From positions 52,507 through 116,506 of the forward strand of contig CAINEC010000193.1 in assembly GCA_903847585.1 (NCBI GenBank): a stretch of DNA of 64,000 bases, read 5' to 3'. The notes under the pieces were generated by a model, which did no database searches, was not told the DNA's origin, and saw only the letters and a list, made by a program, of their open reading frames with translations. Numbering within the stretch: position 1 is the stretch's first letter; each line of letters begins with the position of its first letter. Both the position numbers and the translations under genes were made by a program. This DNA is from an uncultured Bacteroidota bacterium (GTDB lineage: Bacteria; Bacteroidota; Bacteroidia; AKYH767-A; OLB10). Below are positions 2,090-18,380 of the stretch, piece by piece.

Positions 2090-2091
2090 GA

Positions 2092-3973: not shown

Positions 3974-6900
3974 TTAGTATTTGAGTTCTTGTCCTACGTG
4001 AAGCACATTCAATCTTGAATTATTTTTCTTTCTTAGATCTGTGATGGAAATACCGAGTCTTCTACTAATACTATAAGGTGTATCACCTAATTTAACCACA
4101 TAAATACCATGACGCTTTTCCATCATCTCAGAACTCGATAATGTTAAAGAATCTTTTGGAGTAACAACTGGCTTCACAACGTGAGCTGTATCTAATTCTG
4201 TCATACAAGGACAAAGTATTTTCTTTTGACTTTGAGTAAAATCATATCCTGAAAGCGGTTTGTATTCTTTGATTCTTGTCCTCACATTATTATAGCCTTT
4301 GTAATTATTTTCTGTACACAACTCCCAATACTTTAATGCCTGAGTGGAATTGAAATCACAAAACTGCATCAATGATAAAGCAGACAACATACCTGATTGA
4401 TGCCATCCGTTCCAGCAATGTATATAAACCTTCTCCTTCTCGTTATCAATTTTATTGTTAACCCGATTCAATAAATCTGCATAAAACTCCATTAAAAAAG
4501 TATCTGATATTACTGGCCTGCAGTCATAATCTAAACCAATGCTTTTTAACGAATCTATTTTAAACGAATCATAACGTTGTGTAAAATTTTTTGAATAGAG
4601 GTAATAGATTTTATTAAATCCAGCTTCATGTAAATTATCTATTGCATAATAAGGCAAAGGATTTTGAACATAATATTTTGGAATGGAATCTTTCAAATCA
4701 AGATTGTTACCGCCACCTCTATAAAGCAAACCTGGAAATACAGCTCTTACATTGCGTGTACCTAACATAGAGGAATCACCTTTCCCTGAATTATCAATAT
4801 ATCGTTTAAGTACAGAATTCCCTTTATCACAATTCGTTTTAATTGTGTCTACATCGCTTGAATTCTTTACAGCTTTATTATCCACTTGTCCATTACATGA
4901 TGCGGCCATCATGCACAAAAATAATACGATAGGCAAATTCGTGAGTTTATTATTGCGCTTACGAATAAGGAATAACACTATCAAAATAATTAGCAAACCC
5001 GAAATAATTGATATCATATAAATAGTGCTGTTTCCAGACTTTTCTTTATTAACGGATGCGTTAAATTTTAATTGTTTAAGCTTTGATATTGAAATATTCT
5101 TGACCTTAATTTTACCATTCTCCTTTTGAATCAAATAACCTGCATGTAAAATTAACATAGAATCGCTCACAAGATAATGTAAACTATCTATCCATGTATG
5201 ATTTATCGTATCAATAAGATTAAACTGTACATCATTTAAAAAAGAACTTGATTCAAATGCTGGAACTGCTTTCAAATTCTTACTTTGAATATTCGAATTA
5301 AACAAGTTCAAGTTATTAGTAAGAATTATTGAAGAAGATGCAGGGATAACTACATTACTTAAATCAACAGCCAAACCGTTTCGATCTTCATATAACTTTA
5401 CACCCTTTAAAGAAATATCGCTAGTGTGTTTGTTAGCCAACTCAATAAATAGCAACGGCTCTTTCTTCGAATTATTGATATAGTATTTTCTAATCTCTAA
5501 ACTATCTTTTTTAGACGATGCTTTTAGATGACTAAAATTTGCAGTAAGATTTAAATTCGATAACAGCTGAACATTCCTGCTCGATGTTTTTACTCCATCA
5601 CTCCATCCATCAAATTGATATTGATGATTTGAATTCAGAGCAGATAATTCAAAAGGAATACTTCCAAAGAAATAACCATTAATTGCATTCGTATGAACAA
5701 CCGAATTATTTATAGTGAGTCCTTTGAATGAATTATTATTTTGACCAACTGTTAGTCGATAAATCGAATCAATTGAGAAAGTGATTTTCAAATCTTTAAA
5801 TAACGTTGTATCGCGAACAGAAAAATATTGCTTTAGCTCATTAAACTTTTCTGTCCAGGCTTCCATATCCTCGCCATACAAATTTTTTCTGCGATTGAAA
5901 TGACGAGGCAGCTCCCCTTTTATTTTTTCTGCACGTAAATCCAAACTACGACCAAAATAAGACGCATTCAAATAAGTCGCATTCAAGTAACAATACTGCG
6001 TTACAAATCGATTTCGCAGTGTATCATTTTTCAATAAATGTTCAAGTATTGTAGTAGTATAGCTAGGGTTATACCATAGTCGTTCTTTAGGCAAACAACG
6101 ATTCTGAATAAAATTCGATTCAGCAAATGCACATGCTTGATCAGCATCATAAACTACCCATTTCCATTTACCATCCTTATGCTTGTAAAAACGAACATTA
6201 CCACGTGAGTCGATGTTTGTTATATACGTTTCAAATATTTGATAATTGAAATAATTTTCGATGTCGATACTATCTTTTATCAAATTAATAAAATCAGGCT
6301 TATCAGAACTCTCTATGATATAAGAAACTAATGAATTGTATTCAGGACTTTCATCTCCTGAACCTTGCAATTCAATAAAATCACCTTTCTTCCAATCATA
6401 GCGGTATTTAAAATAATCGCCATTAACTTTCTCTCTCAAGTTATGTATTCCGTAATAAATACCATTGACATATAAAATCACCTGACGATAATCTTTCGTA
6501 TTTAAATCAATATCCGCTGCTACCTGACTAATTGCAATATCTTTTATTCGTGTTGCATGTTGATCATTTCCAGAAGTTCGAAGCACTACATGCTGATAAT
6601 CTCTGAAAGGTAAATTCTGGAATAGTTTTACTTTTATCTTACTGCGTTCATATTTATTATCTCTCGCCGATAACTGCAAAGACTTTTCTTTCCAACCTAA
6701 AGTCATACCTCCGTAAGTCTTAACATCAAGCGCTAATTCATCAACCAATTCATTGTAAAAATAAAACTGTGCAAAGCATGATATTGGTTTTTTATCCCAA
6801 GCCTTACCAACTACTTTTGTTTTTGCTTTTTTATTCTTTTTCTTTTCTTCTCGATTAGCAACTTCGCCATAGTAAATTCCTTCTGGTGGAAAAAACTCGA

Positions 6901-7291
6901 TTGAATCGACAATTATTGAAACAATTGGAATCTGATGAGGAGAATTAATAAAATAGGTTCCTAGGTATTTACTATCTTTTCCATTCTCACCCTTCAAAAT
7001 TATTGTTAACGAAGATGTTTCTGTGATTGTAAAATTCAAGCCCGGATACGTTTCTCCTTTTTCATTTGAAACAATTATTCTTGCATTTGATGTATCGATT
7101 CCTGTAATTGAAATTGCAACTGGAGATTTATAAAATCCTGAAAGATGATTTATCTTAAAAGTTGTAGCCTTCTCCAGACTGTAAATCATTAAGGGCTTTT
7201 TAGCTGCCGTATCTTTGACATTGGGAATATCTTGTCCGAATGCAAATTGACAAATTATAACTAAAAGAAGCACGAGTCGTTGTTTCATCAT
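3974..7291 (-). CDS. Composite ORF: signal peptide, CotH-like kinase-fold domain, TM helix, lipobox-like hydrophobic segment, dual-specificity-phosphatase-like domain (HCxxGxxQSG), and a C-terminal LysM. It may be two genes fused in frame.
   Basis: CotH-like core (VLRTSGNDQHATR, YVNGIYYGIHNLREK, NIDSRGNVRFYKHKDGKWKWVVYDAD) is paralogous to 13271..15637. A TM helix plus RKRNNK lies at about 4970..5030, followed by LPIVLFLCMMAASC. VYIHCWNGWHQSGMLSALSLM aligns with the DSP P-loop VxVHCxAGxSRSxT. The C-terminal YVVKLGDTPYSISRRLGISITDLRKKNNSRLNVLHVGQELK is a LysM. Confidence 0.55.
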   Translation of the reverse strand: MMKQRLVLLLVIICQFAFGQDIPNVKDTAAKKPLMIYSLEKATTFKINHLSGFYKSPVAISITGIDTSNARIIVSNEKGETYPGLNFTITETSSLTIILKGENGKDSKYLGTYFINSPHQIPIVSIIVDSIEFFPPEGIYYGEVANREEKKKNKKAKTKVVGKAWDKKPISCFAQFYFYNELVDELALDVKTYGGMTLGWKEKSLQLSARDNKYERSKIKVKLFQNLPFRDYQHVVLRTSGNDQHATRIKDIAISQVAADIDLNTKDYRQVILYVNGIYYGIHNLREKVNGDYFKYRYDWKKGDFIELQGSGDESPEYNSLVSYIIESSDKPDFINLIKDSIDIENYFNYQIFETYITNIDSRGNVRFYKHKDGKWKWVVYDADQACAFAESNFIQNRCLPKERLWYNPSYTTTILEHLLKNDTLRNRFVTQYCYLNATYLNASYFGRSLDLRAEKIKGELPRHFNRRKNLYGEDMEAWTEKFNELKQYFSVRDTTLFKDLKITFSIDSIYRLTVGQNNNSFKGLTINNSVVHTNAINGYFFGSIPFELSALNSNHQYQFDGWSDGVKTSSRNVQLLSNLNLTANFSHLKASSKKDSLEIRKYYINNSKKEPLLFIELANKHTSDISLKGVKLYEDRNGLAVDLSNVVIPASSSIILTNNLNLFNSNIQSKNLKAVPAFESSSFLNDVQFNLIDTINHTWIDSLHYLVSDSMLILHAGYLIQKENGKIKVKNISISKLKQLKFNASVNKEKSGNSTIYMISIISGLLIILIVLFLIRKRNNKLTNLPIVLFLCMMAASCNGQVDNKAVKNSSDVDTIKTNCDKGNSVLKRYIDNSGKGDSSMLGTRNVRAVFPGLLYRGGGNNLDLKDSIPKYYVQNPLPYYAIDNLHEAGFNKIYYLYSKNFTQRYDSFKIDSLKSIGLDYDCRPVISDTFLMEFYADLLNRVNNKIDNEKEKVYIHCWNGWHQSGMLSALSLMQFCDFNSTQALKYWELCTENNYKGYNNVRTRIKEYKPLSGYDFTQSQKKILCPCMTELDTAHVVKPVVTPKDSLTLSSSEMMEKRHGIYVVKLGDTPYSISRRLGISITDLRKKNNSRLNVLHVGQELKY

Positions 7292-7308
7292 CAGCTTGAA
7301 TACACAAT

Positions 7309-8328
7309 TTAAATCACTTTGTAACTTAAGATTATTTCAACTTCGGGACCTCTCAATATTCCTATGTGAAGTTCGCCAAGTTTTAATTGCTCCATTGTTT
7401 TTGAAAAAGTGTTTCCAGATTTATTATCGAATAATATTAAATCTTGATTATTAAGCAACACAATGGTATCATTCGACAACTGTTCAATTTCGAAATAAAG
7501 AGTTGAGGCTGCTTTTATTATTTTATTATAAGGAGCGCTATTAATTTTGAAAGATACACTCTCCATATTAAAAACAGTAGGGAGACTAAATTTAGGGTCG
7601 GTTTGTGATTTAATCAGAATACTATCCACATTGAAGCCCATTTGAAAAACAGTACTGGTTTCAAAATACATCATCTTTTTAAATTGTTCACGAGTAACTT
7701 TTTTGGGTAAAAATTGATATTTACTGCTATCTGGAAAATGATTAAACAAAAACTCTTTAGGGTTTACATCAAACCAATAAACGTTATAAATCGATTTTGA
7801 TTTAGCCTTACCATTTATATTCTCAGCATATCCACTACCCCAAGTAGGATCCATTAAATGCCATTGATCATTATACTGGACAGCATTCCAAGCATGATTA
7901 ACTCCAGTGACTGGCATACCTAATTTAAACCCGTATCCTTTGGCAAAACCATCAATCGACACACAAGGAATATTTAATTCATCACATATGGCTTTAAACA
8001 AAAAACTATAACCTGCGCATACCGCTTTACGTGATTTAAAAACTGCTTCCGCACTAGGATCATTAAAAACATGAGAATTGAAGGCATCATCATCATAAGA
8101 GATATGATGAGCCACCCAAGAATAAACTAAGCGTGATTGATAATTTTTATTATTGGTGATTTTCTGAAAGTAATTCGCCAATTTACCAATTGACTCTTCA
8201 TTCTCTACAGGAACATTTTTTCCTAAGCTATCTAATTGAGCATAGCTGTAATTTTGAGCATAGCTTAATTGAAAACTAAAGCACAATAAAATTAAAATTA
8301 TTATTCGCATACTTATTTTCTGATACAT
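7309..8328 (-). CDS. Transglutaminase-like (TGc) cysteine-protease-fold protein, secreted.
   Basis: AVCAGYSFLF ... NHAWNAVQYNDQWHLMDPTWG gives the Cys-His-Asp triad context of the transglutaminase-like superfamily; signal peptide present. Confidence 0.65.
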   Translation of the reverse strand: MYQKISMRIIILILLCFSFQLSYAQNYSYAQLDSLGKNVPVENEESIGKLANYFQKITNNKNYQSRLVYSWVAHHISYDDDAFNSHVFNDPSAEAVFKSRKAVCAGYSFLFKAICDELNIPCVSIDGFAKGYGFKLGMPVTGVNHAWNAVQYNDQWHLMDPTWGSGYAENINGKAKSKSIYNVYWFDVNPKEFLFNHFPDSSKYQFLPKKVTREQFKKMMYFETSTVFQMGFNVDSILIKSQTDPKFSLPTVFNMESVSFKINSAPYNKIIKAASTLYFEIEQLSNDTIVLLNNQDLILFDNKSGNTFSKTMEQLKLGELHIGILRGPEVEIILSYKVI

Positions 8329-9053
8329 CGGATTGAGAACCCATTTTCAAGAACAAAGTTACCAATTCCTTGCTCCATATCAGATTGGCAGTTACCAATA
8401 TAAAGTGCTTTAAGCTCCGTATTCGTAGAGTCAGTAGGTGTATTCACCCAAAAAAAAGAGCAAGCCCCTTCTGCTAAATCCCCATTGAATAAATAACCGC
8501 CTTTATTTGCTCCAAAACCAGATTGATTGTTACTTACTACTTTTCTTGAATAAAGAGATTGCTCCGCCTCATTCCAATCTTCAACACTCCAATCATATTT
8601 CGCCAATTTGGTCATTACCTTTTCTGTAAACTTTTCACGCCCCCCAAGATATGCCGCGAGCATAAGATAGTCATCAGCAATAGGTAACCGATATCCCTTG
8701 GGACATACTGAAACAGAGTCTAGCAATACATAGCCATTGTAAAGCACATCGCCATTTTTCATAACATAACAGCATGGCATCTTACGTTCGTTATACTTAT
8801 TCCAGTCTTTGATCGACTTTACTTTTTTAATCTCTCTGCCATCAGAAAAGGTAGTTGTACTAACGTTATTGGACATCCATACTTGAACACCAATTTTTAC
8901 ATGAGGCACGGAATCCAGTAATTCAACGGAATCGATTTTCGCTACCTTTTCTTGCTTAGGCTCTGTGATTAGCTCCAAATCTTTTTTCTCCACCACATCA
9001 CATGCGCAAAAACACAAGATTAAGAATCCTGACAAACGATAAATTATCTTCAT
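8313..9053 (-). CDS. FISUMP (Fibrobacter succinogenes major paralogous) domain lipoprotein. It overlaps the upstream TGc gene by 16 nt.
   Basis: VQVWMSNN ... CPKGYRLP ... FWVNT ... GFSIRCIRK matches the FISUMP pattern (WMAENL, CPxGWRLP, SVRCV); lipobox LCFCAC. Confidence 0.55.
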   Translation of the reverse strand: MKIIYRLSGFLILCFCACDVVEKKDLELITEPKQEKVAKIDSVELLDSVPHVKIGVQVWMSNNVSTTTFSDGREIKKVKSIKDWNKYNERKMPCCYVMKNGDVLYNGYVLLDSVSVCPKGYRLPIADDYLMLAAYLGGREKFTEKVMTKLAKYDWSVEDWNEAEQSLYSRKVVSNNQSGFGANKGGYLFNGDLAEGACSFFWVNTPTDSTNTELKALYIGNCQSDMEQGIGNFVLENGFSIRCIRK

Positions 9054-9109
9054 TTTAATGAATTAAAAGCCGAGGCGAAAATAGTAAAATCCTGAAACTT
9101 AGCCCTTAT

Positions 9110-10873
9110 TTACTTACGCTTTATATATAACTCGATCTTATGACGTCGTTTGACGTATAGAATACACTCCTTCCCTGCCATTTTAAGCTCATTTTCTCGC
9201 TTTTTAGCTAATTTGAGATTATTAAACACTTCCACTTTCTTATACACTTTCAAATCGATGTTCATCTTAGGATATTTGACTACTGCACTTGTCGTATCTT
9301 TATCCTTGACTGGCTTTTTAACTTCAACAACAACAGGAACAACATCTTCTTCATTTGGAACATTTACAGGATTTGACTCAATCATTCCAAATCGATAGAG
9401 GTTACCATCTCTACAAGCAATATAAATACTCCCATTAAAGCAAACGGGAGTAGACTCAAAATAACCTTTTCGAGTAGCTATCTTTTGAAAACTAGCATTA
9501 GAACCTATTTTATAGATATTAATTGAACCGTATCCAGCCATTACTAATCTATTTTTTGCAAATACAGGAGTTGAAATAGAAGTGCAGACCTTTTCTCTAT
9601 AATGTAATTTCGGACAAGGGTATTTCGTTTCACCATCAGGACCTAATACAAGAGAATCCGATAATTCCTTATAACGAATAACATTAAGATAACCATCAAT
9701 TCCAGTGAATGCTGCAAGGAAAGGATCATTATTATTTCGATAACGATCGTTCACCGCACATGACCCAACAACACCACCAATCCAACTCGAATATTTCTTG
9801 TCTTCAGTAGGATAAAACCATTGTACACATTGATTTGGAGGCAGATTTGGATTCAACTTAAACACTCCACCATGACCTTTGATATATTGCTTTTCAACAG
9901 CAATTAATAAGCAATTATCATCTGTTACGACAGGAGTCCCATCCATATCAGAGCCGATATAAAAATCCCAATCAATAATTTTCTTTTTCAGATTATAACC
10001 AAATACATGTCCGCAACCCGAAGCAATATATAAGTGATCACCAAGTTTGGCAGGTGAAGCCTCGGTTACAAGATTACCACCATGCTGATGTGCATCTTCT
10101 TTCGAATACAGAAGCGTTTTATTATAAACTAACGGCGAGCAATATCCTTTATTTGATTTTACATTTTTTAAGGGATCGAAAGAAACCCAGTATCCATTTT
10201 CTAAACCAATATATCCAGTATCATTCACAAACAAGGCTGATGCATCCACATCATTGCTGTAACACTTCGTTCTTTGCATTGGCATTCTCCAAACTTCTTT
10301 TCCATTAGCACAGTGTAGCGCTCTAAAACTAGTAGCAGCAGAATCTTTTAATGAAACATGAACACCTTTACGACTACCTTGAAAAATATAAAATGGGTTA
10401 CCTTCTGAATGATTATTATTTCTCCAAATTGTACCAGTGCCTTTTAAAATATCTTCGTACTCATATTGCCATACAAGAGAAGCATCTGATAGTTTAATTT
10501 TCTTTAATGTATGATCAAAACTAGCTTGATAAATAAAATATTCACCTTGTTCTTTTGTAATGAGCGGTTGACCTGTCCACCCTGCTCCACTCCATACTTC
10601 TACTCCTGACTGAGCATTTACTATTGTTTCGCCTTTACCAAGTTTATATTTCCAAATTACATTAAGCGAATCAGAGCAAGAATCCCCATAAAATTTTCTC
10701 GTTTCATCACCTAAAAAAGTTCCAATAACAACTTGATAGGGGTCTTCTTTTTTCTTACTTGTAGCAGAATTATTATTCTTTATTTCGGATTGACTACATC
10801 CAAAGATTAGAATTAAACAACCCCAAACAATAATTTTAAAAAAGCTGCGTCTCATTTGATTAATGCGTTGCAA
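9110..10873 (-). CDS. Hypothetical lipoprotein, possibly a beta-propeller.
   Basis: Lipobox IFGCSQ; repeated Gly/Trp/Tyr-rich blades with a PQQ/BamB-like feel; a Lys-rich C-terminal tail; no specific family recognised. Confidence 0.35.
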   Translation of the reverse strand: MQRINQMRRSFFKIIVWGCLILIFGCSQSEIKNNNSATSKKKEDPYQVVIGTFLGDETRKFYGDSCSDSLNVIWKYKLGKGETIVNAQSGVEVWSGAGWTGQPLITKEQGEYFIYQASFDHTLKKIKLSDASLVWQYEYEDILKGTGTIWRNNNHSEGNPFYIFQGSRKGVHVSLKDSAATSFRALHCANGKEVWRMPMQRTKCYSNDVDASALFVNDTGYIGLENGYWVSFDPLKNVKSNKGYCSPLVYNKTLLYSKEDAHQHGGNLVTEASPAKLGDHLYIASGCGHVFGYNLKKKIIDWDFYIGSDMDGTPVVTDDNCLLIAVEKQYIKGHGGVFKLNPNLPPNQCVQWFYPTEDKKYSSWIGGVVGSCAVNDRYRNNNDPFLAAFTGIDGYLNVIRYKELSDSLVLGPDGETKYPCPKLHYREKVCTSISTPVFAKNRLVMAGYGSINIYKIGSNASFQKIATRKGYFESTPVCFNGSIYIACRDGNLYRFGMIESNPVNVPNEEDVVPVVVEVKKPVKDKDTTSAVVKYPKMNIDLKVYKKVEVFNNLKLAKKRENELKMAGKECILYVKRRHKIELYIKRK

Positions 10874-11998: not shown

Positions 11999-13102
11999 CT
12001 AATTCGCTTTTTTCTTGAATCCGAGATGCGTATAAACTGCTCTTTCACCTCCATCACTTGGACGATTAATCACACCGAGTTGCTTTGAATACATTAAGCT
12101 ACTACCACCCTGATCGCAGGCCATTGCATTATACACACCAACCTTTTTAAATACTTCAACAGCTTGTGTCATTGTAACACCAATACTATATAACGGCTTT
12201 CGTCCATCAACCACCATCATAAAAATACGGTTACCATCTTTATTCAACCCAATTAGCGTACGAGGAAAAAAATGATCTGCTGTATAATCATGTTTTGATA
12301 TTGCACTTTCCCCATTCATCATCATATCAAACCTCCCCCAAATGGCATTGTGCATTTGTTCTGAGGGCTTCTTTACTACATCTTCTTCTTTTGAATAATA
12401 AACTTGATTGTTGCTATCAAAATAAATAAAAGGACGATACCTCGTATCCTCCAACATGATGGGGTTACCGTTAACAATAAAATTTCCAATCCAACTGCCA
12501 AGTGGTGCTTCACGCGCAGGCGCTGTTCCTGCCTCACCATTAACTGCTATATCCCAATTATTCTTTTTAGCCACTTTAGCTGTACGCAGTTTAACAGACA
12601 TCGCAGTATCTAATCCAACATTGTATTTGGTCAAATCAACTGTAGCAAGAAACACGACGTTAAGCGGTTCAGCCATGTTAATTTTAATGATCTCAAGTCC
12701 TTCTTCTGCTTGTAAAAAATCAACAGATTGAACTTTGCCAAAAGACAATTTCTTTAATTCTTCAAAATACTGTTCCAAATAAGATCTTTTATTACCACTA
12801 TCTTTTACAACTACAATTTGCTTTTTTGTTTTAGCATCTATTTCTATGTTATGTAGTTGATAATCGCCGATTGCTATTGCACCAATGATTAAAAAGAAGA
12901 TAGTAGAAGATGTATATGCATAAATTTTTACTGCTGGTTGAATAGAGGTTTTCTTGAAAGCACCTAAAATAAAAAAAGTAAAAAGCCAAAAAACGGAGGA
13001 GCAAAATATCCAAAGTAACCCTTGAAAGGCCAAGGGTAATTCAAAAACCCTAAGTAGAACCATCCACAAATCATCAATTAAAATATTTACAAAATCACCC
13101 AT
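11999..13102 (-). CDS. Phosphodiester glycosidase family protein (NAGPA/DUF2233-like) with N-terminal TM helices.
   Basis: FFPRTLIGLNKDGNRIFMMVVDGRKPLYSIGVTMTQAVEVFKKVGVYNAMACDQGGSSLMY matches the phosphodiester glycosidase core (RTAIG, VVDGR, LDGGGSS). Confidence 0.6.
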   Translation of the reverse strand: MGDFVNILIDDLWMVLLRVFELPLAFQGLLWIFCSSVFWLFTFFILGAFKKTSIQPAVKIYAYTSSTIFFLIIGAIAIGDYQLHNIEIDAKTKKQIVVVKDSGNKRSYLEQYFEELKKLSFGKVQSVDFLQAEEGLEIIKINMAEPLNVVFLATVDLTKYNVGLDTAMSVKLRTAKVAKKNNWDIAVNGEAGTAPAREAPLGSWIGNFIVNGNPIMLEDTRYRPFIYFDSNNQVYYSKEEDVVKKPSEQMHNAIWGRFDMMMNGESAISKHDYTADHFFPRTLIGLNKDGNRIFMMVVDGRKPLYSIGVTMTQAVEVFKKVGVYNAMACDQGGSSLMYSKQLGVINRPSDGGERAVYTHLGFKKKAN

Positions 13103-13270
13103 GCTAACAGTATGAAATCCGCTTTCTAACGAGCAAATATAGCAAGATTTAAAGCTTCATTTTTTTGCTAATACGATTTAACGTAGACTGATTTTCAAAC
13201 AATTACAACCATTAACAAACCCAAACAACATAAGATTAATCATACAATAGTCTTTTGTAATGATTAAATA

Positions 13271-15637
13271 ATGATATTTGCCCCACTTGAAACAACTGCA
13301 TTCATTTACCAACGAATGATTAAATCGAGTTACTTGAAGTTAACTTTTTTAGCTATTATCTTTTTTTTCACTCAAAAAGATAGTTATGGCCAACACTTCA
13401 CACCTATAGTGAATGCGCAGCGATTTGGAATTAAATTCAGTCATTTACCAGGCGAATTTGATTCGAGCATCAATTTAAAAATCACCCGTCCTGCAAATAT
13501 CAAATTAGCATTTAGAAACAGCGACAGTACTTCAATACCAATTAAGGGCGATACAATCACTATTAAAATAACAACAACCGCTTCCATTTACATGACAGTA
13601 AATATAGCAGGACAAGTGGTTGATTCAAGTTATACAGGAACTTATATAATTGGAAAAAAATCAGATTTGCCAGTTATCAATTTGCACTTAAAAAGAAAGT
13701 ACTTTGATGGTGATGAAGGTATCATCAATGGATATATGGATTATGAGAATCATAAGCGATTTGGGAAAGTGTGGAGCAAGTTTTCCATCCCTACTTACCT
13801 TGAATATTACGAGGATAAATCGTTTGTTTTTGGGGAGACTTATCGTGTAAAACCATTTGGTGGATGGACATTAGGAATGAGGGAAAAATCATTGAGAGTA
13901 TACTCAGAAAAAACAGAAGGCGCCTCAAAAATTAAAATTAGTCCTTTTGAAAATAAACCATACCTATCCTATAAAAGTATTGTTCTACGTACATCGGGAT
14001 CTGATCAAGGAACTACAAGACTAAAAGATATTTCTATTTGCTCGCTAGCAAGAGACCTTGGATTAGACTATCAGGATTACAGACAGGCAGTTCTTTTAAT
14101 CAATGGTGAATATTGGGGTATTTATGATATCCGTGAAAAAATAAATTATGAATATTTAAAATATAATCATGGTGCCAGCAAAGACAAAACTCAAACTGAA
14201 TTGTTGGAGCTTGACGGAATGCGTAATGCAGATTATAAGTCGATGACAGAATATATTGGCAAGGACTTTAAAAAAGAAGAAGCATTTGACTCAATCAATC
14301 AAAAAGTTGATATTGAAAATTATATTAAGTACATCATCTTACAAATACATATTCAAAATATCGATTCGAGAGGTAATGTAAGATTCTGGAAGAGCAAATC
14401 GTTGGATGATCGTTGGCGCTGGATTTTTTATGACTCTGATTTAGGTTGTGAAAACAGCAGCGTAAATATGAATTATCTTGGTAAGCGTTTGAGCCCTGTA
14501 CAAACGGATTGGTACAATCCAACATGGTCAACAGTGATTTTAAGGAACCTTGTTAAAAACGAAGAAATAAAAAATTATTTCATAAATCAGTATTGTCTAT
14601 TACTAGGAACAAAGCTTCATACCGACACCATAAAAAATCGTATTGAGTATTTTGCAAATAATATTCGTGACGAAATTCCTCAACACGTCAACAGAAGAAA
14701 TAGTATTTACGGCGAAACCGTAGAGAAATGGAATAACAGAATTGCCAACTTCAAAAAATACTTCGACTTAAGAAATCCAACAGCCTATTCACATCTTAAA
14801 GATTGCTTTGGATTAACACAAGATGCCGTTAGTTTAACCATCAAAACTAATTTACCACAGGTAAAATCATTGAACATTTATCGTTCAAGTTACAACTTCA
14901 GTTATATCAATGGAAATTTCTTTCCGGAGGTTCCTATTACCGTTAAAGCAAGCAATGTTGATCATCTATATTACTTCTCTCATTGGAAACAAAATTCAGA
15001 CACGAATAGTCTAACTACAATCTATCCCGGAAAAACAAAAGAACTGGAAGCAGTTTATATGCATAAACCGTATTCGGATTTGCACAAGAAAATTATTGTT
15101 GCCAAACTATTTTTCGAACAATCTAAGAAGGACACATTATTCACGATTGGATTGATGAATATTGGCAATGATTCTTTAGAGCAGATTAAAATTAATTACT
15201 CTTGCAATGGATATAATAACAATTATCAATTTACGATTAACAAGATAAGAGTTGGAGAAATAGTTTACTTTACTAATAAACCTAAGAAATCAAATAAGTT
15301 ATTAAGTGAGAGTAATTACAATCAAATTTCATTACCAGAAGGATTTGATTATCGAGGTGGCCGATTAGTTTTTGCTGATATGCACGGAGCTATTATCGAT
15401 ACGCTTTTCTTAAATGTGCCAGACACTGCTGCAAGATACAATCACCTAATAAAAGCTACGCGTAATATTCAGAATGGAAAATGGATGTTTGGCAATTATG
15501 AAATAAAATTTGTGATACCTGAAAAACCAATTAACTACAAATTATACGTTGCCATTAGCCTTGGAGCATTAATTATTTTAATTGCACCGATTGTTTATTT
15601 TAGAAGTAGAAGAAAAAAGGCAAAACAGCAAAGTTGA
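13271..15637 (+). CDS. CotH-like kinase-fold protein, secreted, with a C-terminal TM anchor and basic tail. The likely true start is the Met at 13316.
   Basis: VLRTSGSDQGTTRLKD, LINGEYWGIYDIREK and NIDSRGNVRFWKSK...WRWIFYDSDLG match the CotH Pfam core. The C-terminus is YVAISLGALIILIAPIVYF-RSRRKKAKQQS. Confidence 0.55.
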   Translation: MIFAPLETTAFIYQRMIKSSYLKLTFLAIIFFFTQKDSYGQHFTPIVNAQRFGIKFSHLPGEFDSSINLKITRPANIKLAFRNSDSTSIPIKGDTITIKITTTASIYMTVNIAGQVVDSSYTGTYIIGKKSDLPVINLHLKRKYFDGDEGIINGYMDYENHKRFGKVWSKFSIPTYLEYYEDKSFVFGETYRVKPFGGWTLGMREKSLRVYSEKTEGASKIKISPFENKPYLSYKSIVLRTSGSDQGTTRLKDISICSLARDLGLDYQDYRQAVLLINGEYWGIYDIREKINYEYLKYNHGASKDKTQTELLELDGMRNADYKSMTEYIGKDFKKEEAFDSINQKVDIENYIKYIILQIHIQNIDSRGNVRFWKSKSLDDRWRWIFYDSDLGCENSSVNMNYLGKRLSPVQTDWYNPTWSTVILRNLVKNEEIKNYFINQYCLLLGTKLHTDTIKNRIEYFANNIRDEIPQHVNRRNSIYGETVEKWNNRIANFKKYFDLRNPTAYSHLKDCFGLTQDAVSLTIKTNLPQVKSLNIYRSSYNFSYINGNFFPEVPITVKASNVDHLYYFSHWKQNSDTNSLTTIYPGKTKELEAVYMHKPYSDLHKKIIVAKLFFEQSKKDTLFTIGLMNIGNDSLEQIKINYSCNGYNNNYQFTINKIRVGEIVYFTNKPKKSNKLLSESNYNQISLPEGFDYRGGRLVFADMHGAIIDTLFLNVPDTAARYNHLIKATRNIQNGKWMFGNYEIKFVIPEKPINYKLYVAISLGALIILIAPIVYFRSRRKKAKQQS

Positions 15638-15646
15638 TTCTGAAGC

Positions 15647-16114
15647 TTAATACTTTTCGAGCCGATATTTTTCAATTACACCGATAATATGTTTTGACCA
15701 GACTTTTGCATTAGCTGCATACCCTGTATTAGAAATCGAAACCACCCATTTTTTATAGTCCTTATTCCCCTTTAAAGAAGGATAAAACTTTTTACGAGCT
15801 ACCAAATTACAAAAGTATACATAGGAGTCTGCAGGCTTTGCAAAGTACTTATACGACGATTTTACGGAGACCGTGTCACCACCAGCTACTCTGCCTTTTA
15901 AACCAAAATGATTATTCAACCTTCTTCCTACGACACTTGTCCCCCCACCCGACTCCTGATAAGCTACTGCTAAAATTACAGATGCAGGGATTTGATAAAC
16001 TGCAGCGAGACTATCTGCTAATGGTCTGTACTCATTAAAAAATTTATTCTGTGAATTTGCTCTTCCAGAAAAAAGAAAGAACACAAGAAACAAGGTCAAA
16101 TATTGCTTTTTCAT
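15647..16114 (-). CDS. Glucosaminidase-domain (mannosyl-glycoprotein endo-beta-N-acetylglucosaminidase-like) protein, secreted.
   Basis: ILAVAYQESGGGTSVVGRRLNNHFGLKG matches the glucosaminidase AxxESGWG...NNxFGIK motif; the start is taken at MKKQYL. Confidence 0.6.
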   Translation of the reverse strand: MKKQYLTLFLVFFLFSGRANSQNKFFNEYRPLADSLAAVYQIPASVILAVAYQESGGGTSVVGRRLNNHFGLKGRVAGGDTVSVKSSYKYFAKPADSYVYFCNLVARKKFYPSLKGNKDYKKWVVSISNTGYAANAKVWSKHIIGVIEKYRLEKY

Positions 16115-16140
16115 TGAATAAATATACAAAAAATCAGTTA

Positions 16141-17190
16141 CTAATTTAACAAATTAGCTAAAAATCGAATTCTCGAAAGCAAAGCAATTAGTAAAAGTGA
16201 TATTGCATAACAAACAACAATAGTTATAATTGTTCCTGCGATAGGATTTATAAATCCACCATTTATATTAAAAATTTGTAATGCATCCAACACAAATACA
16301 TGAATAAGGTAAACACCAAATCCGTATTTATTGCAATACTTTATTTTATCGAGATAAAAACCACGTGAGCTAAAACTATTCTTCACCAACATGAACAATG
16401 CAGCTGAGGCGATAACAATATTAATACTCAAATACTGATAATACTTTCCATTGAACATTCCATTAGCTATTGGATAATATAATGTTGCTAAAAAAGTAAA
16501 GGCAATTGATGCTGCAAATATGGCTAACAACAAATAGGAATTGAATTTAGATGACCGATGAGCAATATAATATCCAAGTATTAAATACCCCAGATATCCA
16601 GTAAAGATCGTTAGTGAAAAATCTTTGTGAAGATTTAAATCAAAAAAATTAATTGTCAATCCTAAGAACCATATAAGTAAAAAATATAAAACCGAATTAC
16701 TATCAGCATTCAACACCCATTTATTAAGTATTGGAATAGCGAGATATAAGCCAATGAGCATATAGATATACCACAGATGATAAGAAGCACCATCTACGAG
16801 CGATGATAAAAAGTAATTCAGGTAATTTGCGCATTGAATTTCTCCCGACTTACAAAAATGATAGATTGAATATGCAACTGTCCAAAACAAGAACGGAATT
16901 AAAATTCGAATAAATCTCTTTTTCAAAAAATCGGTTAACGTAATTGAGCGATTCAATAACAAGGCTCCACTTAACATCACAAAAAATGGAACCGCAAAAC
17001 GTGAAAGCGAGTCAATCAGATTATAGATATTCCAATCCGTATTAGAAATTTGTCCGTATTGATAGAGATAAGGCGCCACCACATGAATAGTGATTACTGC
17101 AATGGTTGCGAGCCACCTTACACTATCTAACCAATCTGTTGATTTATTTTCTTCTTGACTAACGGTACTCATTATTGCTGGGGAGTCCAC
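16141..17190 (-). CDS. Acyltransferase family 3 (OatA/WecH-like O-acyltransferase) integral membrane protein.
   Basis: About 10 TM helices; the N-terminal WLDSVRWLATIAVITIHV is typical of acyltransferase_3; it overlaps CapA by 19 nt. Confidence 0.65.
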   Translation of the reverse strand: MDSPAIMSTVSQEENKSTDWLDSVRWLATIAVITIHVVAPYLYQYGQISNTDWNIYNLIDSLSRFAVPFFVMLSGALLLNRSITLTDFLKKRFIRILIPFLFWTVAYSIYHFCKSGEIQCANYLNYFLSSLVDGASYHLWYIYMLIGLYLAIPILNKWVLNADSNSVLYFLLIWFLGLTINFFDLNLHKDFSLTIFTGYLGYLILGYYIAHRSSKFNSYLLLAIFAASIAFTFLATLYYPIANGMFNGKYYQYLSINIVIASAALFMLVKNSFSSRGFYLDKIKYCNKYGFGVYLIHVFVLDALQIFNINGGFINPIAGTIITIVVCYAISLLLIALLSRIRFLANLLN

Positions 17191-18380
17191 TCATTAATTT
17201 GTGTGACAATATTTTTTACATCCTCAAAAAACACTGCAGCCTTTGTGCTATCATCCGACGGAAGCATCCCTAATTTCTGCTTGGTAATTGGGTAATATCC
17301 TTTAATCAGATTGTTGGCTTCATTATACGACTCAAGCTTCCATACCCAGAATGGTAAATAATCTACCGCTGCAATTGAGTACTTATTATTTTTACGTGAA
17401 ACGGTCAAGCGAACCATTATACCACCATCTCTGTTTCGGTCGCGTTGATTAGAAATATAATTACCCAAGCTATAAGCAACAGGAATCGAATCTTGCTGAT
17501 GCTTCTTAAAATTAGTTTTAATGTACTTTACAGGCTCAACAACATGCGGATGCATTCCAATGATAGCATTTACTCCAGCATTGCTTAATATTTCTGCAGT
17601 AAGCTGTTGCTCTTTGTTTTCTTTGGTCTGATATTCAACACCCCAGTGCATTACTGGAATAATTAAATTAGCCCCCATTGATTGTGCCTTTTTAACATCT
17701 CTGATCATAGCAGCACTATCAATCATATTCACGATGTTCGGATTTTTTACAATAAGTCCATTAGTACCATAAGTATAATTCAATATTGCAATTTTACATC
17801 CTGCAATATTTACTACAGGAGGATAAGAATTATTAAAGATGGTAGTGTCTGAAAATGTTCCTGTGTGTGGGATATTTAAGCTATCTAACACTTTAATTGT
17901 TCTTTCTAACCCTTTGCTTCCTCTATCTTGCGAGTGATTATTTGCGGTAACCAGGAAATCAAATCCAGCATTCTTTATTGCTACAGCATATTCATCAGGA
18001 GAAGAAAACTGCGGATATCCGGTGTATGGCTCACCGCCTAATGTAACTTCGAGATTTGCACAAGCCCAATCACATTTATTGATGTATGGTGCAATAAACT
18101 GGAACCAATGATCATAATGATATGCCTTTAATGAATCGTCATAAGCTGCAGAAATCATTGGTTGGTGTCCCATCATATCTCCACCAAATAACAATGTAAA
18201 TGTAGTATCTGGTAATCCTGTTTTTTTAGGGACTTCTACTATTTTCTTTTTATCTACCTGTGCAAATCCTAAAAACAGCGATAAGGAAACAGCAGAAAAA
18301 ATTAATACGAGAATAATGGGTGATTTATATTTCATAATAAACTTAACAACTAATGAATTAAAGAAATTATTGTCTGACAT
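17172..18380 (-). CDS. CapA/PGA_cap family metallophosphatase-fold protein (poly-gamma-glutamate capsule CapA homolog).
   Basis: GDMMGHQP, NLEVTLGG, TANNHSQDRGSKGLERT and HWGVEY motifs; an N-terminal signal anchor. Confidence 0.7.
   Translation of the reverse strand: MSDNNFFNSLVVKFIMKYKSPIILVLIFSAVSLSLFLGFAQVDKKKIVEVPKKTGLPDTTFTLLFGGDMMGHQPMISAAYDDSLKAYHYDHWFQFIAPYINKCDWACANLEVTLGGEPYTGYPQFSSPDEYAVAIKNAGFDFLVTANNHSQDRGSKGLERTIKVLDSLNIPHTGTFSDTTIFNNSYPPVVNIAGCKIAILNYTYGTNGLIVKNPNIVNMIDSAAMIRDVKKAQSMGANLIIPVMHWGVEYQTKENKEQQLTAEILSNAGVNAIIGMHPHVVEPVKYIKTNFKKHQQDSIPVAYSLGNYISNQRDRNRDGGIMVRLTVSRKNNKYSIAAVDYLPFWVWKLESYNEANNLIKGYYPITKQKLGMLPSDDSTKAAVFFEDVKNIVTQINEWTPQQ

What the first reader, a model, noticed from the sequence alone, without database searches (positions are those of the whole stretch)
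3974..18380. Accessory cluster combining CotH kinase-fold, phosphodiester glycosidase, GDPD, CapA, acyltransferase-3 and glucosaminidase, with an LtaS-like gene nearby: candidate phosphodiester-linked glycopolymer system
Within about 15 kb are two CotH-like proteins with C-terminal membrane anchors, a NAGPA-type phosphodiester glycosidase (which in eukaryotes uncovers phosphodiester-capped sugars), a glycerophosphodiester phosphodiesterase (here disrupted), CapA, an O-acyltransferase and a glucosaminidase. Alongside them are LysM, SH3b, TGc and FISUMP wall-associated proteins, and an LTA-synthase-like gene lies at 30519. Individually these are common annotations. Their co-localisation suggests a system that builds, decorates or trims a sugar-phosphate-linked (teichoic-acid-like) envelope polymer, a function not well described in Bacteroidota.
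Basis: inference. Interest (0 to 1): 0.6.

Follow-up and report, generated by a model that had tools for sequence, protein, structure and literature searches.

The report
Exported CotH–phosphodiesterase envelope gene module

Summary
The 15-kb "system" does not behave as one unit.

**Co-conserved core.** CotH lies next to a membrane-anchored NAGPA-type phosphodiester glycosidase, and that glycosidase lies next to a GDPD-DUF4996(-LysM) phosphodiesterase.
- Among 63 non-redundant NAGPA loci, CotH lies within 1.5 kb in 21, GDPD in 20, and both in 12.
- CotH density is about 50-fold higher there than 1.5-10 kb away.
- The adjacency occurs in at least 8 gene arrangements and three phyla.

- The C-terminus of CotH1 is a Cys-phosphatase-fold domain plus LysM, with an invariant arginine-less P-loop, HCWNGWHQSG.
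- An unannotated lipoprotein (2771-3964) is a conserved partner of CotH1-type genes.

**Predicted activity and location.** Both CotH paralogues keep the catalytic and Mg-binding aspartates, yet all parts are predicted to be exported.

**Not conserved with the core.** TGc, FISUMP, the propeller, glucosaminidase and AT3 are lineage-specific neighbours. CapA-family and LtaS-like genes recur only sporadically, and as non-orthologous copies.

**GDPD.** The disruption is a single recent in-frame TGA.

**Best reading (0.45).** A peptidoglycan-tethered, extracytoplasmic phosphoester write/uncover/erase module. Its chemistry is unproven and no report of it was found.

The parts
13271..15637 (+). CotH2. 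Exported CotH kinase-fold protein: signal peptide, N-terminal beta-sandwich, CotH domain (aa 194-502), two C-terminal beta-sandwich domains, C-terminal TM anchor (aa ~754-772 from the 13271 start) and a basic tail. The likely true start is M16 at 13316. Divergent from NAGPA.
   Evidence: Pfam CotH 6.3e-36. AF2 model pLDDT 85.9. Foldseek hit to B. cereus CotH 5JDA, E 1.7e-14, TMt 0.74. Hydropathy. Orthologues sit next to NAGPA.
14357..14440 (+). CotH2 catalytic core: 'NIDSRGN' (D365, N369) and 'FYDSD' (D388).
   Evidence: These columns are invariant in family alignments A2 and A6. They align to 'NFDG' and 'WDYD' of 5JD9. The 23-residue spacing equals that of B. subtilis D228/D251, whose mutation inactivates CotH (PMC7821199). 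Coordinates.
11999..13102 (-). NAGPA-type phosphodiester glycosidase: conserved acidic N-terminal motif, two TM segments, catalytic domain aa 184-362. Predicted N-out/C-out topology; this is an inference from the positive-inside rule.
   Evidence: Pfam NAGPA 5.3e-23. 108 homologues. Profile A1 hits DUF2233 structure 3OHG at 9.3e-16 and vertebrate NAGPA structures. Hydropathy.
12101..12118 (-). NAGPA active-site loop 'CDQGGS', a variant of the 'DGGGS' motif.
   Evidence: Invariant in A1. It aligns to 'LDGGGS' of 3OHG. PMC13474241 describes DGGGS as strictly invariant.
10923..11909 (+). GDPD-DUF4996 glycerophosphodiester phosphodiesterase gene with a signal peptide, convergent with NAGPA. It is interrupted by one in-frame TGA at 11325-11327. 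Most orthologues carry a C-terminal LysM; this copy lacks it.
   Evidence: Pfam GDPD 1.8e-24 and DUF4996 4.8e-13. DNA alignment with L011 and L001 shows TTA to TGA and a shared loss of LysM with L011. Read-through translation. dN/dS 0.11, like the neighbours. Adjacent to NAGPA in 20 of 63 loci.
3974..7291 (-). CotH1, a fusion protein. Order: signal peptide, CotH domain (nt 5807-6715; motifs at 6197-6217 and 6140-6151), LTD (5183-5518), TM hairpin (4868-5023), Cys-phosphatase-fold domain (4181-4819), LysM (3980-4102).
   Evidence: Pfam. Hydropathy. Coordinates. The two halves are separate genes in L006, L093 and the P0139 locus, and the stand-alone versions carry their own signal peptides.
4181..4819 (-). 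Cys-phosphatase (PTP/DSP)-fold domain. The P-loop 'HCWNGWHQSG' (nt 4391-4420) has Gln where canonical enzymes have the CX5R arginine.
   Evidence: AF2 model pLDDT 79.7. Foldseek prob 1.0 and TMt about 0.65 to ShufPTP, PFA-DSP1, Siw14, Cdc14, PRL and RNA triphosphatases. Only sub-threshold Pfam DSPc and Y_phosphatase hits. The motif is never Arg in 95 close homologues plus 125 of 135 50%-identity representatives. The family is rare: 256 representatives among 1.84 billion.
2771..3964 (+). Unannotated predicted lipoprotein (397 aa), a conserved partner of CotH1-type genes. It is convergent with CotH1, 10 bp away.
   Evidence: No Pfam, NCBIfam or PDB match. Orthologues at 40-41% identity lie beside CotH in L006 and in the marine locus L093. 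Homologues lie directly upstream of NAGPA in L032 and L033.
1373..2571 (-). SH3b (2092-2571) plus VanY D-Ala-D-Ala carboxypeptidase (1373-2089). This peptidoglycan-directed pair recurs with the module in one other lineage.
   Evidence: Pfam. In L023 the SH3_3 + VanY pair lies immediately downstream of NAGPA-GDPD.
7309..10873 (-). TGc (7309-8328), FISUMP (8313-9053) and a PQQ-like beta-propeller (9110-10873). All are exported and lie upstream of CotH1 on the same strand. They are lineage-specific neighbours, not part of the conserved core.
   Evidence: Pfam. Found with the core only in the window's clade, L001-3, L011 and L012. Not recurrent in the flank census.
15647..18380 (-). Glucosaminidase (15647-16129), Acyl_transf_3 (16141-17190) and PGA_cap/CapA (17172-18380). 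They are clade-specific neighbours. Only the PGA_cap family recurs elsewhere, and non-orthologously.
   Evidence: Pfam. Orthologues are found only in L001-3 and L011. PGA_cap lies directly after GDPD in L017 and L019, at 18% identity to the window's CapA.
30519..32462 (-). LtaS/OpgB-like phosphoglycerol-transferase-fold protein: six hydrophobic segments plus a Sulfatase domain. It lies 17 kb from the core, and no link to the core is shown in this window.
   Evidence: Pfam Sulfatase 3.8e-33. NCBIfam OpgB and LtaS hits are far below cut-off. Paralogues (110 bits) abut GDPD in L092/L018 and in L034.

Best explanation
**What it is.** The region holds a conserved extracytoplasmic module that acts on phosphate esters of a GlcNAc-containing envelope glycan, most likely peptidoglycan or a polymer attached to it.

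**Members in this window.**
- Two exported, membrane-anchored CotH kinase-fold enzymes with intact catalytic aspartates. One is fused to an arginine-less Cys-phosphatase-fold domain and LysM.
- A membrane-anchored NAGPA-type glycosidase.
- A secreted GDPD-DUF4996 phosphodiesterase.
- An uncharacterised lipoprotein.

**Proposed working (inferred, not shown).**
1. CotH is the writer. It installs a phosphate or a phospho-linked group on the glycan, in a compartment that is not known to contain ATP.
2. NAGPA cleaves sugar-1-phosphate caps, the 'uncovering' step.
3. GDPD removes glycerophosphodiester-linked groups.
4. The phosphatase-fold domain binds or removes the remaining phosphate.
5. LysM modules hold the enzymes on the glycan.

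In this strain the GDPD step has just been lost to a nonsense codon.

**Outside the module.** TGc, FISUMP, propeller, glucosaminidase, AT3 and CapA are wall-associated neighbours specific to this lineage.
For: **Shown: co-localisation.**
- CotH-NAGPA and NAGPA-GDPD adjacency occur in 21 and 20 of 63 non-redundant loci, with both in 12.
- CotH density near NAGPA is about 50-fold higher than further out.
- There are at least 8 arrangements and three CotH subtypes. The subtypes are TM-anchored proteins of 770-1100 aa, lipoproteins of about 400 aa, and T9SS-tailed proteins of about 880 aa.
- The flanks are unrelated between loci.
- Non-Bacteroidota cases are L039 (Kiritimatiellia) and L065 (Planctomycetota).

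**Shown: CotH looks active.** The fold matches 5JDA. The catalytic and Mg-binding Asp equivalents are invariant.

**Shown: CotH and the phosphatase-fold domain are coupled.** They are fused, or encoded by adjacent genes, in many lineages.

**Predicted: export.** Signal peptides, lipoboxes and TM anchors sit on every core protein.

**Glycan and peptidoglycan link.**
- LysM occurs on CotH1, on orthologous GDPDs and on stand-alone phosphatase-fold proteins.
- Recurring neighbours are SLT, SPOR, SH3b+VanY, and MBOAT+DHHW+GDSL-LysM.

**Lipid-donor hint.** Some CotH proteins are fused to the flippase-like PF03706 TM domain. LtaS-like genes abut GDPD in two lineages.

**Purifying selection.** All core genes have dN/dS of 0.03-0.13.
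Against: - No biochemical data exist for any member. All relatives retrieved come from MAGs or metagenome assemblies.
- CotH is known only as an ATP-dependent protein Ser kinase in the Bacillus mother cell. The periplasm is not known to contain ATP, so either the donor or the reaction must differ.
- The phosphatase-fold domain lacks the P-loop arginine and may be non-catalytic.
- The NAGPA loop is DQGGS, not DGGGS, so its sugar specificity is unknown.
- About half of the NAGPA-subfamily loci have neither CotH nor GDPD nearby. L093 and the P0139 locus have CotH plus the phosphatase-fold protein without NAGPA or GDPD. The module is therefore two loosely coupled pairs, not an obligate four-gene unit.
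- LysM also binds chitin, so the target glycan could be exogenous.
- No phosphodiester-linked glycopolymer is known from these bacteria.
Confidence: 0.45

Rival explanations
1. Catabolic or scavenging module. The hydrolases (NAGPA, GDPD, phosphatase-fold domain) depolymerise exogenous sugar-phosphate or glycerol-phosphate polymers to harvest phosphate and sugars. Candidate substrates are teichoic acids of Gram-positive debris and phosphoglycans. LysM binds wall fragments or chitin.
For: - Three of the four enzyme types are hydrolases of phosphoester-linked groups.
- The closest NCBIfam models for the GDPD are GlpQ and lysoPG-phospholipase-D types.
- Some CotH partners carry T9SS secretion tails and chitobiase-type accessory domains, PF13290.
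- From background knowledge: the hosts appear to be freshwater Bacteroidota MAGs, a group known for degrading polymers, and B. subtilis GlpQ degrades teichoic acid.
Against: - A kinase-fold enzyme with conserved catalytic residues has no obvious role in a degradative pathway.
- No SusC/SusD, phosphate-transport or Pho-type genes recur in the flanks.
- The core proteins are anchored to the inner membrane, not surface-exposed.
- NAGPA has a conserved N-terminal membrane module, typical of an endogenous envelope function.
Confidence: 0.2
2. Extracytoplasmic protein-phosphorylation module, as in the Bacillus spore coat. CotH phosphorylates Ser-rich envelope or matrix proteins and the phosphatase-fold domain reverses it. 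NAGPA and GDPD act on a different substrate and are linked only by shared regulation or location.
For: - The only demonstrated CotH activity is protein Ser phosphorylation (PMC7821199).
- The kinase motifs are intact.
- A kinase-fold and a phosphatase-fold domain are fused in one polypeptide.
- CotH plus the phosphatase-fold protein occur without NAGPA or GDPD in L093 and in the P0139 locus.
Against: - No Ser-rich repeat substrate gene (CotB/CotG-like) was seen in the window or in the loci.
- The CotH-NAGPA adjacency spans phyla and CotH subtypes that lack the phosphatase-fold partner, which argues for a shared pathway with NAGPA.
- The ATP problem applies here too.
- LysM, LTD and carbohydrate-binding accessory domains point to glycans.
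Confidence: 0.15
3. No shared pathway. The region is a run of independently acting exported wall-associated genes, and the recurring adjacencies reflect inheritance of a local gene order, not function.
For:
- About half of the NAGPA loci lack both partners.
- The core genes lie on different strands in the window.
Against: - The adjacency is kept through at least 8 rearrangements, different CotH subfamilies, different flanks and three phyla.
- The local enrichment is about 50-fold.
- There are gene fusions: CotH to the phosphatase-fold domain plus LysM.
Confidence: 0.1

Closest known systems
Bacillus spore-coat kinase CotH (PF08757; PDB 5JD9/5JDA)
   Same: - Same fold: Foldseek E 1.7e-14, TMt 0.74.
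- A broad profile matches the sequence at 1.3e-27.
- The catalytic Asp and the Mg-binding Asp are conserved with the same 23-residue spacing.
   Different: - The proteins here have signal peptides, TM anchors, lipoboxes or T9SS tails. They are therefore predicted to work outside the cytoplasm of a diderm, where ATP is not known to be available.
- They carry LTD, LysM and beta-sandwich domains.
- One is fused to a phosphatase-fold domain, and others are fused to a flippase-like PF03706 TM domain.
- No CotB/CotG-like substrates are present.
Mannose-6-phosphate 'cover/uncover' pathway: GlcNAc-1-phosphotransferase plus uncovering enzyme NAGPA
   Same: - It contains a homologue of the uncovering enzyme's catalytic core.
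- That homologue is genomically coupled to a phosphotransferase-fold enzyme.
- Both act in an ATP-poor compartment on glycans.
   Different: - The partner is a CotH kinase-fold protein, not a Stealth-family GlcNAc-1-P transferase.
- The active-site loop is DQGGS, not the DGGGS reported as invariant.
- The protein is anchored by two N-terminal TMs, not by a C-terminal EGF stalk.
- The substrate is unknown.
Glycerol-phosphate decoration and removal on Gram-positive wall polymers: LtaS/GacH-type GroP transferases and the GlpQ-type teichoicase. (From background knowledge.)
   Same: - A secreted GDPD with a wall-binding LysM.
- LtaS/OpgB-like genes abut it in two lineages, and one is present 17 kb away in the window.
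   Different: - The host is a diderm Bacteroidota with no known teichoic acid.
- No TagF-type polymerase, LCP ligase or cytidylyltransferase was found.
- The GDPD carries DUF4996 and reaches no equivalog cut-off.
Cys-based atypical dual-specificity phosphatases: PFA-DSP/Siw14, Cdc14, PRL, RNA triphosphatases, glucan phosphatase LSF2, periplasmic TpbA
   Same: - Same fold: prob 1.0, TMt 0.6-0.69.
- HC...G...SG P-loop with the Cys in place.
- A glycan-binding module is attached, as in glucan phosphatases.
   Different: - The CX5R arginine is absent throughout the family, whose P-loop is HCxxGxH[Q/A/M]SG.
- Pfam matches lie below the gathering score.
- The domain is exported and LysM-linked.
- The family is rare, with 256 representatives at 50% identity among 1.84 billion.

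Membership tests
CotH kinase family (PF08757) | Pfam model match above the gathering score | tested here: met
   CotH1 scores 107.9 bits and CotH2 124.9 bits, against a cut-off of 23.8.
CotH kinase family (PF08757) | Atypical kinase fold as in B. cereus CotH | tested here: met
   The CotH2 AF2 model (pLDDT 85.9) matches 5JDA/5JD9 at E about 2e-14, TMt 0.74.
CotH kinase family (PF08757) | Catalytic Asp and Mg-binding Asp (B. subtilis D228, D251) | tested here: met
   D365 and D388 of CotH2 are invariant in A2 and A6 and align to NFD/WDYD of 5JD9. CotH1 has the same motifs.
CotH kinase family (PF08757) | ATP-dependent protein Ser kinase activity in an ATP-containing compartment | tested here: not met
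   Activity cannot be tested with these tools. Location was tested: signal peptides, TM anchors, lipoboxes and T9SS tails predict an extracytoplasmic location.
NAGPA / phosphodiester glycosidase (PF09992, DUF2233) | Family model and homology to solved members | tested here: met
   Pfam 82.5 bits against a cut-off of 25. Profile A1 hits 3OHG at 9.3e-16 and vertebrate NAGPA (6PKI, 6PKG) at 1e-6.
NAGPA / phosphodiester glycosidase (PF09992, DUF2233) | 'DGGGS' sugar-phosphate recognition loop, described as strictly invariant (PMC13474241) | tested here: not met
   The loop is DQGGS and is invariant in this subfamily. The D, the GG and the S are kept; the first G is replaced by Q.
NAGPA / phosphodiester glycosidase (PF09992, DUF2233) | Hydrolysis of the GlcNAc-alpha-1-phosphodiester glycosidic bond | not testable with these tools
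   This needs an enzyme assay.
GDPD glycerophosphodiester phosphodiesterase (PF03009) | Family model plus the catalytic HRG...E.D...HD residues | tested here: met
   Pfam 87.6 bits. The read-through translation contains 'AAHRGN', 'EIDV' and 'MHDG'.
GDPD glycerophosphodiester phosphodiesterase (PF03009) | Intact reading frame | tested here: not met
   There is an in-frame TGA at 11325-11327, where L011 and L001 have TTA. The gene is intact in relatives.
Cys-based PTP/DSP phosphatase superfamily | PTP fold with the nucleophilic Cys in the P-loop | tested here: met
   Foldseek prob 1.0 to many DSPs. The HC motif is invariant.
Cys-based PTP/DSP phosphatase superfamily | CX5R signature, the P-loop arginine | tested here: not met
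   The position is Q, A or M and never R. This holds in 95 close homologues and in every P-loop found among 135 representatives.
Cys-based PTP/DSP phosphatase superfamily | Pfam DSPc or Y_phosphatase match above the gathering score | tested here: not met
   DSPc scores 17.5 bits (cut-off 33.5) and Y_phosphatase 14.7 bits (cut-off 20.9).
LtaS / OpgB phosphoglycerol transferases | N-terminal multi-TM domain plus an extracytoplasmic sulfatase-fold domain | tested here: met
   Six hydrophobic segments and Sulfatase at 115.5 bits in the gene at 30519-32462.
LtaS / OpgB phosphoglycerol transferases | Equivalog-level match to LtaS or OpgB | tested here: not met
   65 and 56 bits, against cut-offs of 572 and 970.
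Wall/lipoteichoic acid biosynthesis system | TagF-type polymerase, TagD-type cytidylyltransferase, LCP ligase or TagGH exporter in the cluster | tested here: not met
   No such Pfam family appeared among the ORFs scanned across the window, or in the flank census of relatives.
Poly-gamma-glutamate capsule system (CapBCA/PgsBCA) | CapB ligase and CapC alongside CapA | tested here: not met
   Only PGA_cap is present. No CapB or CapC is found in 1-35 kb.

The most novel reading that the evidence does not exclude
Diderm bacteria run a bacterial counterpart of the mannose-6-phosphate 'cover/uncover' pathway on their own cell wall.
- Exported CotH kinase-fold enzymes act as extracytoplasmic phospho(glycosyl)transferases.
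- They use a non-ATP donor, for example a flipped lipid-pyrophosphate-sugar or a phospholipid head group. This is consistent with the CotH-PF03706 flippase-like fusions.
- The target is peptidoglycan or a polymer attached to it.
- NAGPA uncovers the phosphate.
- GDPD and an arginine-less Cys-phosphatase-fold domain erase it.

This would be a reversible phosphorylation code on the sacculus of Gram-negative bacteria, and a new reaction type for the CotH fold.
Probability: 0.15. Interest if true: 0.85.

Novelty: new variant of a known kind. Interest (0 to 1): 0.58.

Why it matters
- **CotH outside spore formers.** CotH-domain proteins are common in bacteria that do not form spores, and to my knowledge they have no assigned function there. 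Bacterial NAGPA/DUF2233 proteins are likewise orphans, apart from a crystal structure.
- **A testable pathway.** A conserved genomic coupling of the two, together with a glycerophosphodiesterase and a new arginine-less phosphatase-fold family, all exported and tagged with LysM, gives a concrete hypothesis for both families.
- **Two wider questions.** How can a kinase-fold enzyme work in a compartment not known to contain ATP? Do Gram-negative sacculi or envelope glycans carry regulated phosphoester modifications?
- **Value for annotation even if the mechanism is wrong.** The analysis separates a real co-conserved core from incidental neighbours.

Tried and rejected
1. **Exact lookup of the window's NAGPA.** It is not on record, so I worked from homologues.
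2. **Narrow subfamily HMMs.** HMMs built only from close relatives missed distant CotH genes. The first census undercounted the CotH-NAGPA adjacency. A Pfam spot-check exposed this and a broad iterative CotH profile fixed it. The GDPD and PGA_cap screens may still undercount.
3. **PDB sequence searches.** CotH2 alone and the narrow profile A2 found nothing. Only the broad profile A6 reached 5JD9.
4. **'GDPD is an old decaying pseudogene'.** Rejected. dN/dS is 0.11, the same as the intact neighbours, and there is a single nonsense codon. A sequencing or assembly error cannot be excluded.
5. **'The cluster is a mobile accessory island'.** No compositional shift, no mobile-element genes among the ORFs scanned, and synteny in related MAGs.
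6. **Promoter and terminator scan of 2500-18900.** Counts do not differ from shuffles, and Bacteroidota promoters are not covered by the tool. It was uninformative for operon structure.
7. **Rfam and tRNA scans.** Only tRNA-Met at 43297-43371.
8. **Literature.** No paper in the library holds both 'CotH' and 'phosphodiester glycosidase'. The DUF2233 papers do not mention CotH. Das et al. 2013 is not held. The CotH + polyphosphate/VTC idea could not be tested here: no VTC gene is in the window and the two papers found were not read.
10. **Flank census for further conserved partners.** Nothing is strong. PGA_cap appears 3 times, Sulfatase 2 and LytTR 2, among 116 genes.

Full report
**1. What is in the window**

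| Coordinates | Strand | Content |
|---|---|---|
| 1373-2089 | - | VanY |
| 2092-2571 | - | SH3_3 |
| 2771-3964 | + | 397-aa protein, no family match |
| 3974-7291 | - | CotH1 (CotH, LTD, LysM) |
| 7309-8328 | - | Transglut_core (TGc) |
| 8313-9053 | - | Fib_succ_major (FISUMP) |
| 9110-10873 | - | PQQ-like propeller |
| 10923-11327, 11502-11909 | + | GDPD and DUF4996 fragments |
| 11999-13102 | - | NAGPA |
| 13271-15637 | + | CotH2 |
| 15647-16129 | - | Glucosaminidase |
| 16141-17190 | - | Acyl_transf_3 |
| 17172-18380 | - | PGA_cap (CapA) |
| 30519-32462 | - | Sulfatase-fold, six N-terminal hydrophobic segments |

- Most proteins encoded between 2771 and 18380 have a signal peptide, a lipobox or a TM segment.
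- GC content is flat at 0.32-0.35.
- The rest of the window is ordinary chromosome: glycine-cleavage T protein, sugar epimerases/dehydratases, T9SS cargo, DnaK, TamB, ParC/ParE and a transglycosylase.
- The only RNA gene is one tRNA-Met.

- CotH1's TM is internal, not C-terminal.
- The GDPD gene is broken by one in-frame TGA.
- The LtaS-like assignment is at fold level only.
- Nothing marks the region as accessory.

**2. Which genes travel together**

*Homologues and first look-ups.* The NAGPA protein has 108 homologues in the protein collection. Context look-ups gave these results:
- At 83% identity, the whole 20-kb arrangement is syntenic.
- At 48% identity, the order is CotH(1034 aa)-NAGPA-GDPD/DUF4996/LysM next to recA.
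- At 38% identity, the order is CotH(820)-LysM protein(332)-NAGPA with a convergent GDPD, in yet another context.
- At 43% identity (L092), the order is CotH-LysM(1069)-NAGPA-GDPD-LysM, followed by a 650-aa sulfatase-fold gene.

*Wider scan.* A scan of one genome per GTDB species with a NAGPA alignment returned 80 loci, all from MAGs. They come from Bacteroidota, Kiritimatiellia, Planctomycetota, Verrucomicrobiota and Poribacteria.

*First census and its flaw.* My first census used narrow HMMs and undercounted CotH. A Pfam spot-check showed that a distant NAGPA clade (32% identity) is followed by two CotH genes, of 464 aa and 882 aa, the latter with LTD and a T9SS tail.

*Corrected census.* I used a broad CotH profile.
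- Of 63 non-redundant NAGPA loci, CotH lies within 1.5 kb in 21, GDPD in 20 and both in 12.
- As a control, there are 26 CotH ORFs in the 174 kb within 1.5 kb of NAGPA, against 2 in the 695 kb lying 1.5-10 kb away. This is about a 50-fold enrichment.
- The adjacency persists through at least eight arrangements: upstream on the same strand, divergent, downstream, convergent, single or paired CotH, and with or without GDPD.
- It spans three CotH subtypes. The roughly 400-aa type has lipoprotein signal peptides.

*What does not travel with the core.*
- TGc, FISUMP, propeller, glucosaminidase and Acyl_transf_3 occur with the core only in the window's own clade.
- A Pfam census of 116 flanking genes from 25 non-redundant loci found no strongly recurrent family. 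PGA_cap appeared 3 times, Sulfatase 2, LytTR 2 and LysM 2.
- The PGA_cap genes that directly follow GDPD in L017 and L019 are only 18% identical to the window's CapA.
- The sulfatase-fold genes that abut GDPD in L092/L018 and L034 are paralogues of the window's 30519 gene, at 110 bits.

**3.

*(a) A phosphatase-fold domain in CotH1.*
- Residues about 825-1037 of CotH1, between the TM hairpin and LysM, fold as a Cys-based phosphatase. The AF2 model has pLDDT 79.7.
- Foldseek gives prob 1.0 and TMt about 0.65 to ShufPTP, PFA-DSP1, Siw14, Cdc14, PRL, RNA triphosphatases, LSF2 and TpbA.
- The P-loop HCWNGWHQSG is invariant in close homologues.
- Across the family the canonical arginine position is Q, A or M, and never R.
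- Pfam DSPc and Y_phosphatase matches are sub-threshold.
- The family is rare: 256 representatives at 50% identity among 1.84 billion proteins.
- The domain is fused to CotH in many lineages. In others it is a separate, signal-peptide-bearing LysM protein encoded next to CotH.
- The second hydrophobic segment of CotH1 looks like the retained signal peptide of the formerly separate gene. This last point is inference.

*(b) A conserved lipoprotein partner.* The unannotated 397-aa lipoprotein at 2771-3964 has orthologues at 40-41% identity beside CotH in L006 and in a marine TARA locus. Homologues lie directly upstream of NAGPA in L032 and L033.

*(c) Peptidoglycan-related genes recur around the module.*
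- L093 has SLT and SPOR proteins.
- L023 has SH3_3+VanY immediately after GDPD, and MBOAT+DHHW+GDSL-LysM upstream of NAGPA.
- The P0139 locus has MBOAT with Wzx/Wzy/GT genes.
- L093 and the P0139 locus lack NAGPA and GDPD. The module is therefore best described as two coupled pairs that are frequently joined: CotH with the phosphatase-fold protein, and NAGPA with GDPD.

**4. State of the enzymes**

*CotH.*
- The CotH2 model (pLDDT 85.9) matches B. cereus CotH 5JDA at E 1.7e-14, TMt 0.74.
- A broad profile aligns to 5JD9 at 1.3e-27. This places CotH2 D365 and D388 on the 'NFD' and 'WDYD' aspartates.
- These residues are invariant. They are 23 residues apart, as are B. subtilis D228 and D251, whose mutation inactivates the kinase (PMC7821199).
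- CotH1 has the same motifs.

*NAGPA.* The family profile hits the DUF2233 structure 3OHG and vertebrate NAGPA structures. The loop reported as strictly invariant, DGGGS (PMC13474241), is DQGGS throughout this subfamily.

*GDPD.*
- It keeps the HRG, E.D and HD motifs.
- TTA has become TGA at 11325-11327.
- dN/dS against L011 and L001 is 0.11-0.12, like its neighbours. The stop is therefore recent, or an error.
- The window and L011 have both lost the C-terminal LysM. L011 also has HRG changed to HIG.

*All core genes.* dN/dS is 0.03-0.13.

**5. How it most likely works**

*Shown.*
- The co-localisation is conserved.
- The proteins are predicted to be exported.
- The kinase motifs are intact.
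- LysM modules sit on three components.
- All four enzyme types act on, or are folded like enzymes that act on, phosphate esters.

*Inferred.*
- The module writes, uncovers and erases phosphoester-linked groups on a GlcNAc-containing envelope glycan, most plausibly peptidoglycan or a polymer attached to it.
- CotH would be the writer.
- NAGPA would cleave sugar-1-phosphate caps.
- GDPD would remove glycerophosphodiester-linked groups.
- The phosphatase-fold domain would bind or remove residual phosphate.

*The donor problem.* The periplasm is not known to contain ATP, so CotH may use another donor. Two observations point towards membrane-lipid head groups or lipid-pyrophosphate-linked sugars. 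One is the fusion of CotH to the flippase-like PF03706 TM domain. The other is the LtaS-like neighbours. This is speculation. I put 0.45 on the general model.

*Rivals.*
- A catabolic teichoic-acid or phosphoglycan scavenging set: 0.2.
- An extracytoplasmic protein kinase/phosphatase pair with unrelated hydrolase neighbours: 0.15.
- No shared pathway: 0.1.

**6. Comparison with what is known**

- The parts belong to, or resemble, known families: CotH, NAGPA/DUF2233, GDPD and PTP-fold. The membership table records three defining features that are not met. These are cytoplasmic ATP-dependent CotH action, the DGGGS loop and the CX5R arginine.
- Functionally, the closest analogies are the mannose-6-phosphate cover/uncover pathway and the glycerol-phosphate decoration and removal seen on Gram-positive wall polymers.
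- No teichoic-acid or poly-gamma-glutamate biosynthesis set is present.
- In the searchable literature, no paper links CotH with phosphodiester glycosidase or DUF2233. That library is incomplete.

**7. Verdict**

- Its interpretation is partly right. A phosphoester and wall-glycan system is plausible and its core is co-conserved, but half of the listed genes are bystanders, and synthesis of a teichoic-acid-like polymer is not supported.
- I rate it a new variant of a known kind, with interest 0.58.
- The most novel reading not excluded is a reversible phosphorylation cycle on the Gram-negative sacculus, driven by an exported kinase-fold enzyme that does not use ATP. I give it a probability of about 0.15.

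Noticed in passing
window 11325-11327; L011:11090-12260: The GDPD gene carries a single in-frame TGA where relatives have TTA (Leu). The closest relative, L011, is intact there but has the catalytic HRG changed to HIG. Both lineages have lost the C-terminal LysM that other orthologues keep. This may mean the GDPD step is being relaxed in this clade.
   Followed up: yes
window 16141-18779 compared with L011: Synonymous divergence between the window and L011 is very uneven. dS is 0.05-0.08 for CapA, Acyl_transf_3 and the 128-aa ORF, against 0.28-1.9 for the adjacent genes. This suggests a recent recombination or gene-conversion tract covering about 16.1-18.8 kb.
   Followed up: partly
P0140, P0143-P0146, P0152; L091:8001-11384: A subfamily of CotH proteins (about 1105-1138 aa, 33-37% identical to CotH2) is fused to the flippase-like PF03706 (LPG_synthase_TM) membrane domain. 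In L091 the gene is followed by a CTP_transf_like gene and an NMN-transporter gene.
   Followed up: partly
window 4181-4819 and homologues P0229-P0443: These sequences form a rare Cys-phosphatase-fold family whose P-loop is HCxxGxH[A/Q/M][S/T]G. A histidine is fixed at C+5 and arginine never appears at C+6. The more distant members (about 200-290 aa) lack LysM. One of them, in an Ignavibacteriae MAG, is not next to CotH.
   Followed up: partly
window 19706-24448: This run contains a TauE/SafE sulfite-exporter-family gene, a B12-binding radical SAM gene with DUF4080, DUF6265, an S1/P1-nuclease-like gene and a 2-phosphosulfolactate phosphatase (ComB-like). It may be a sulfonate-related set. TauE and two neighbouring ORFs (about 18789-20479) are absent from the syntenic locus L001.
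   Followed up: no
window 35221-43105: Two large tandem paralogous surface proteins of 1593 aa and 1009 aa carry fn3 and a T9SS-associated galactose-binding-like domain. Only the first has PKD repeats and the T9SS C-terminal sorting domain.
   Followed up: no
window 1373-2089 and 25609-26277: The same 64 kb holds two D-Ala-D-Ala-directed peptidases: VanY-type at 1373-2089 and Peptidase_M15/VanX-type at 25609-26277. The second lies beside a GT1 glycosyltransferase and sugar epimerase/dehydratase genes.
   Followed up: no
L042:8946-10001, L056:5307-6383, L071:4947-6008: In the distant clade with the order NAGPA-CotH(464)-CotH(882, T9SS), a conserved ORF of about 351-358 aa lies directly upstream of NAGPA. 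It was not characterised and may be a further clade-specific partner.
   Followed up: no
L038:11984-12787; P0139 locus: Other phosphodiesterase-type genes sit beside the module in single lineages: an Exo_endo_phos (EEP) gene next to GDPD in L038, and an Endonuclease_NS gene directly after CotH in the P0139 locus.
   Followed up: no
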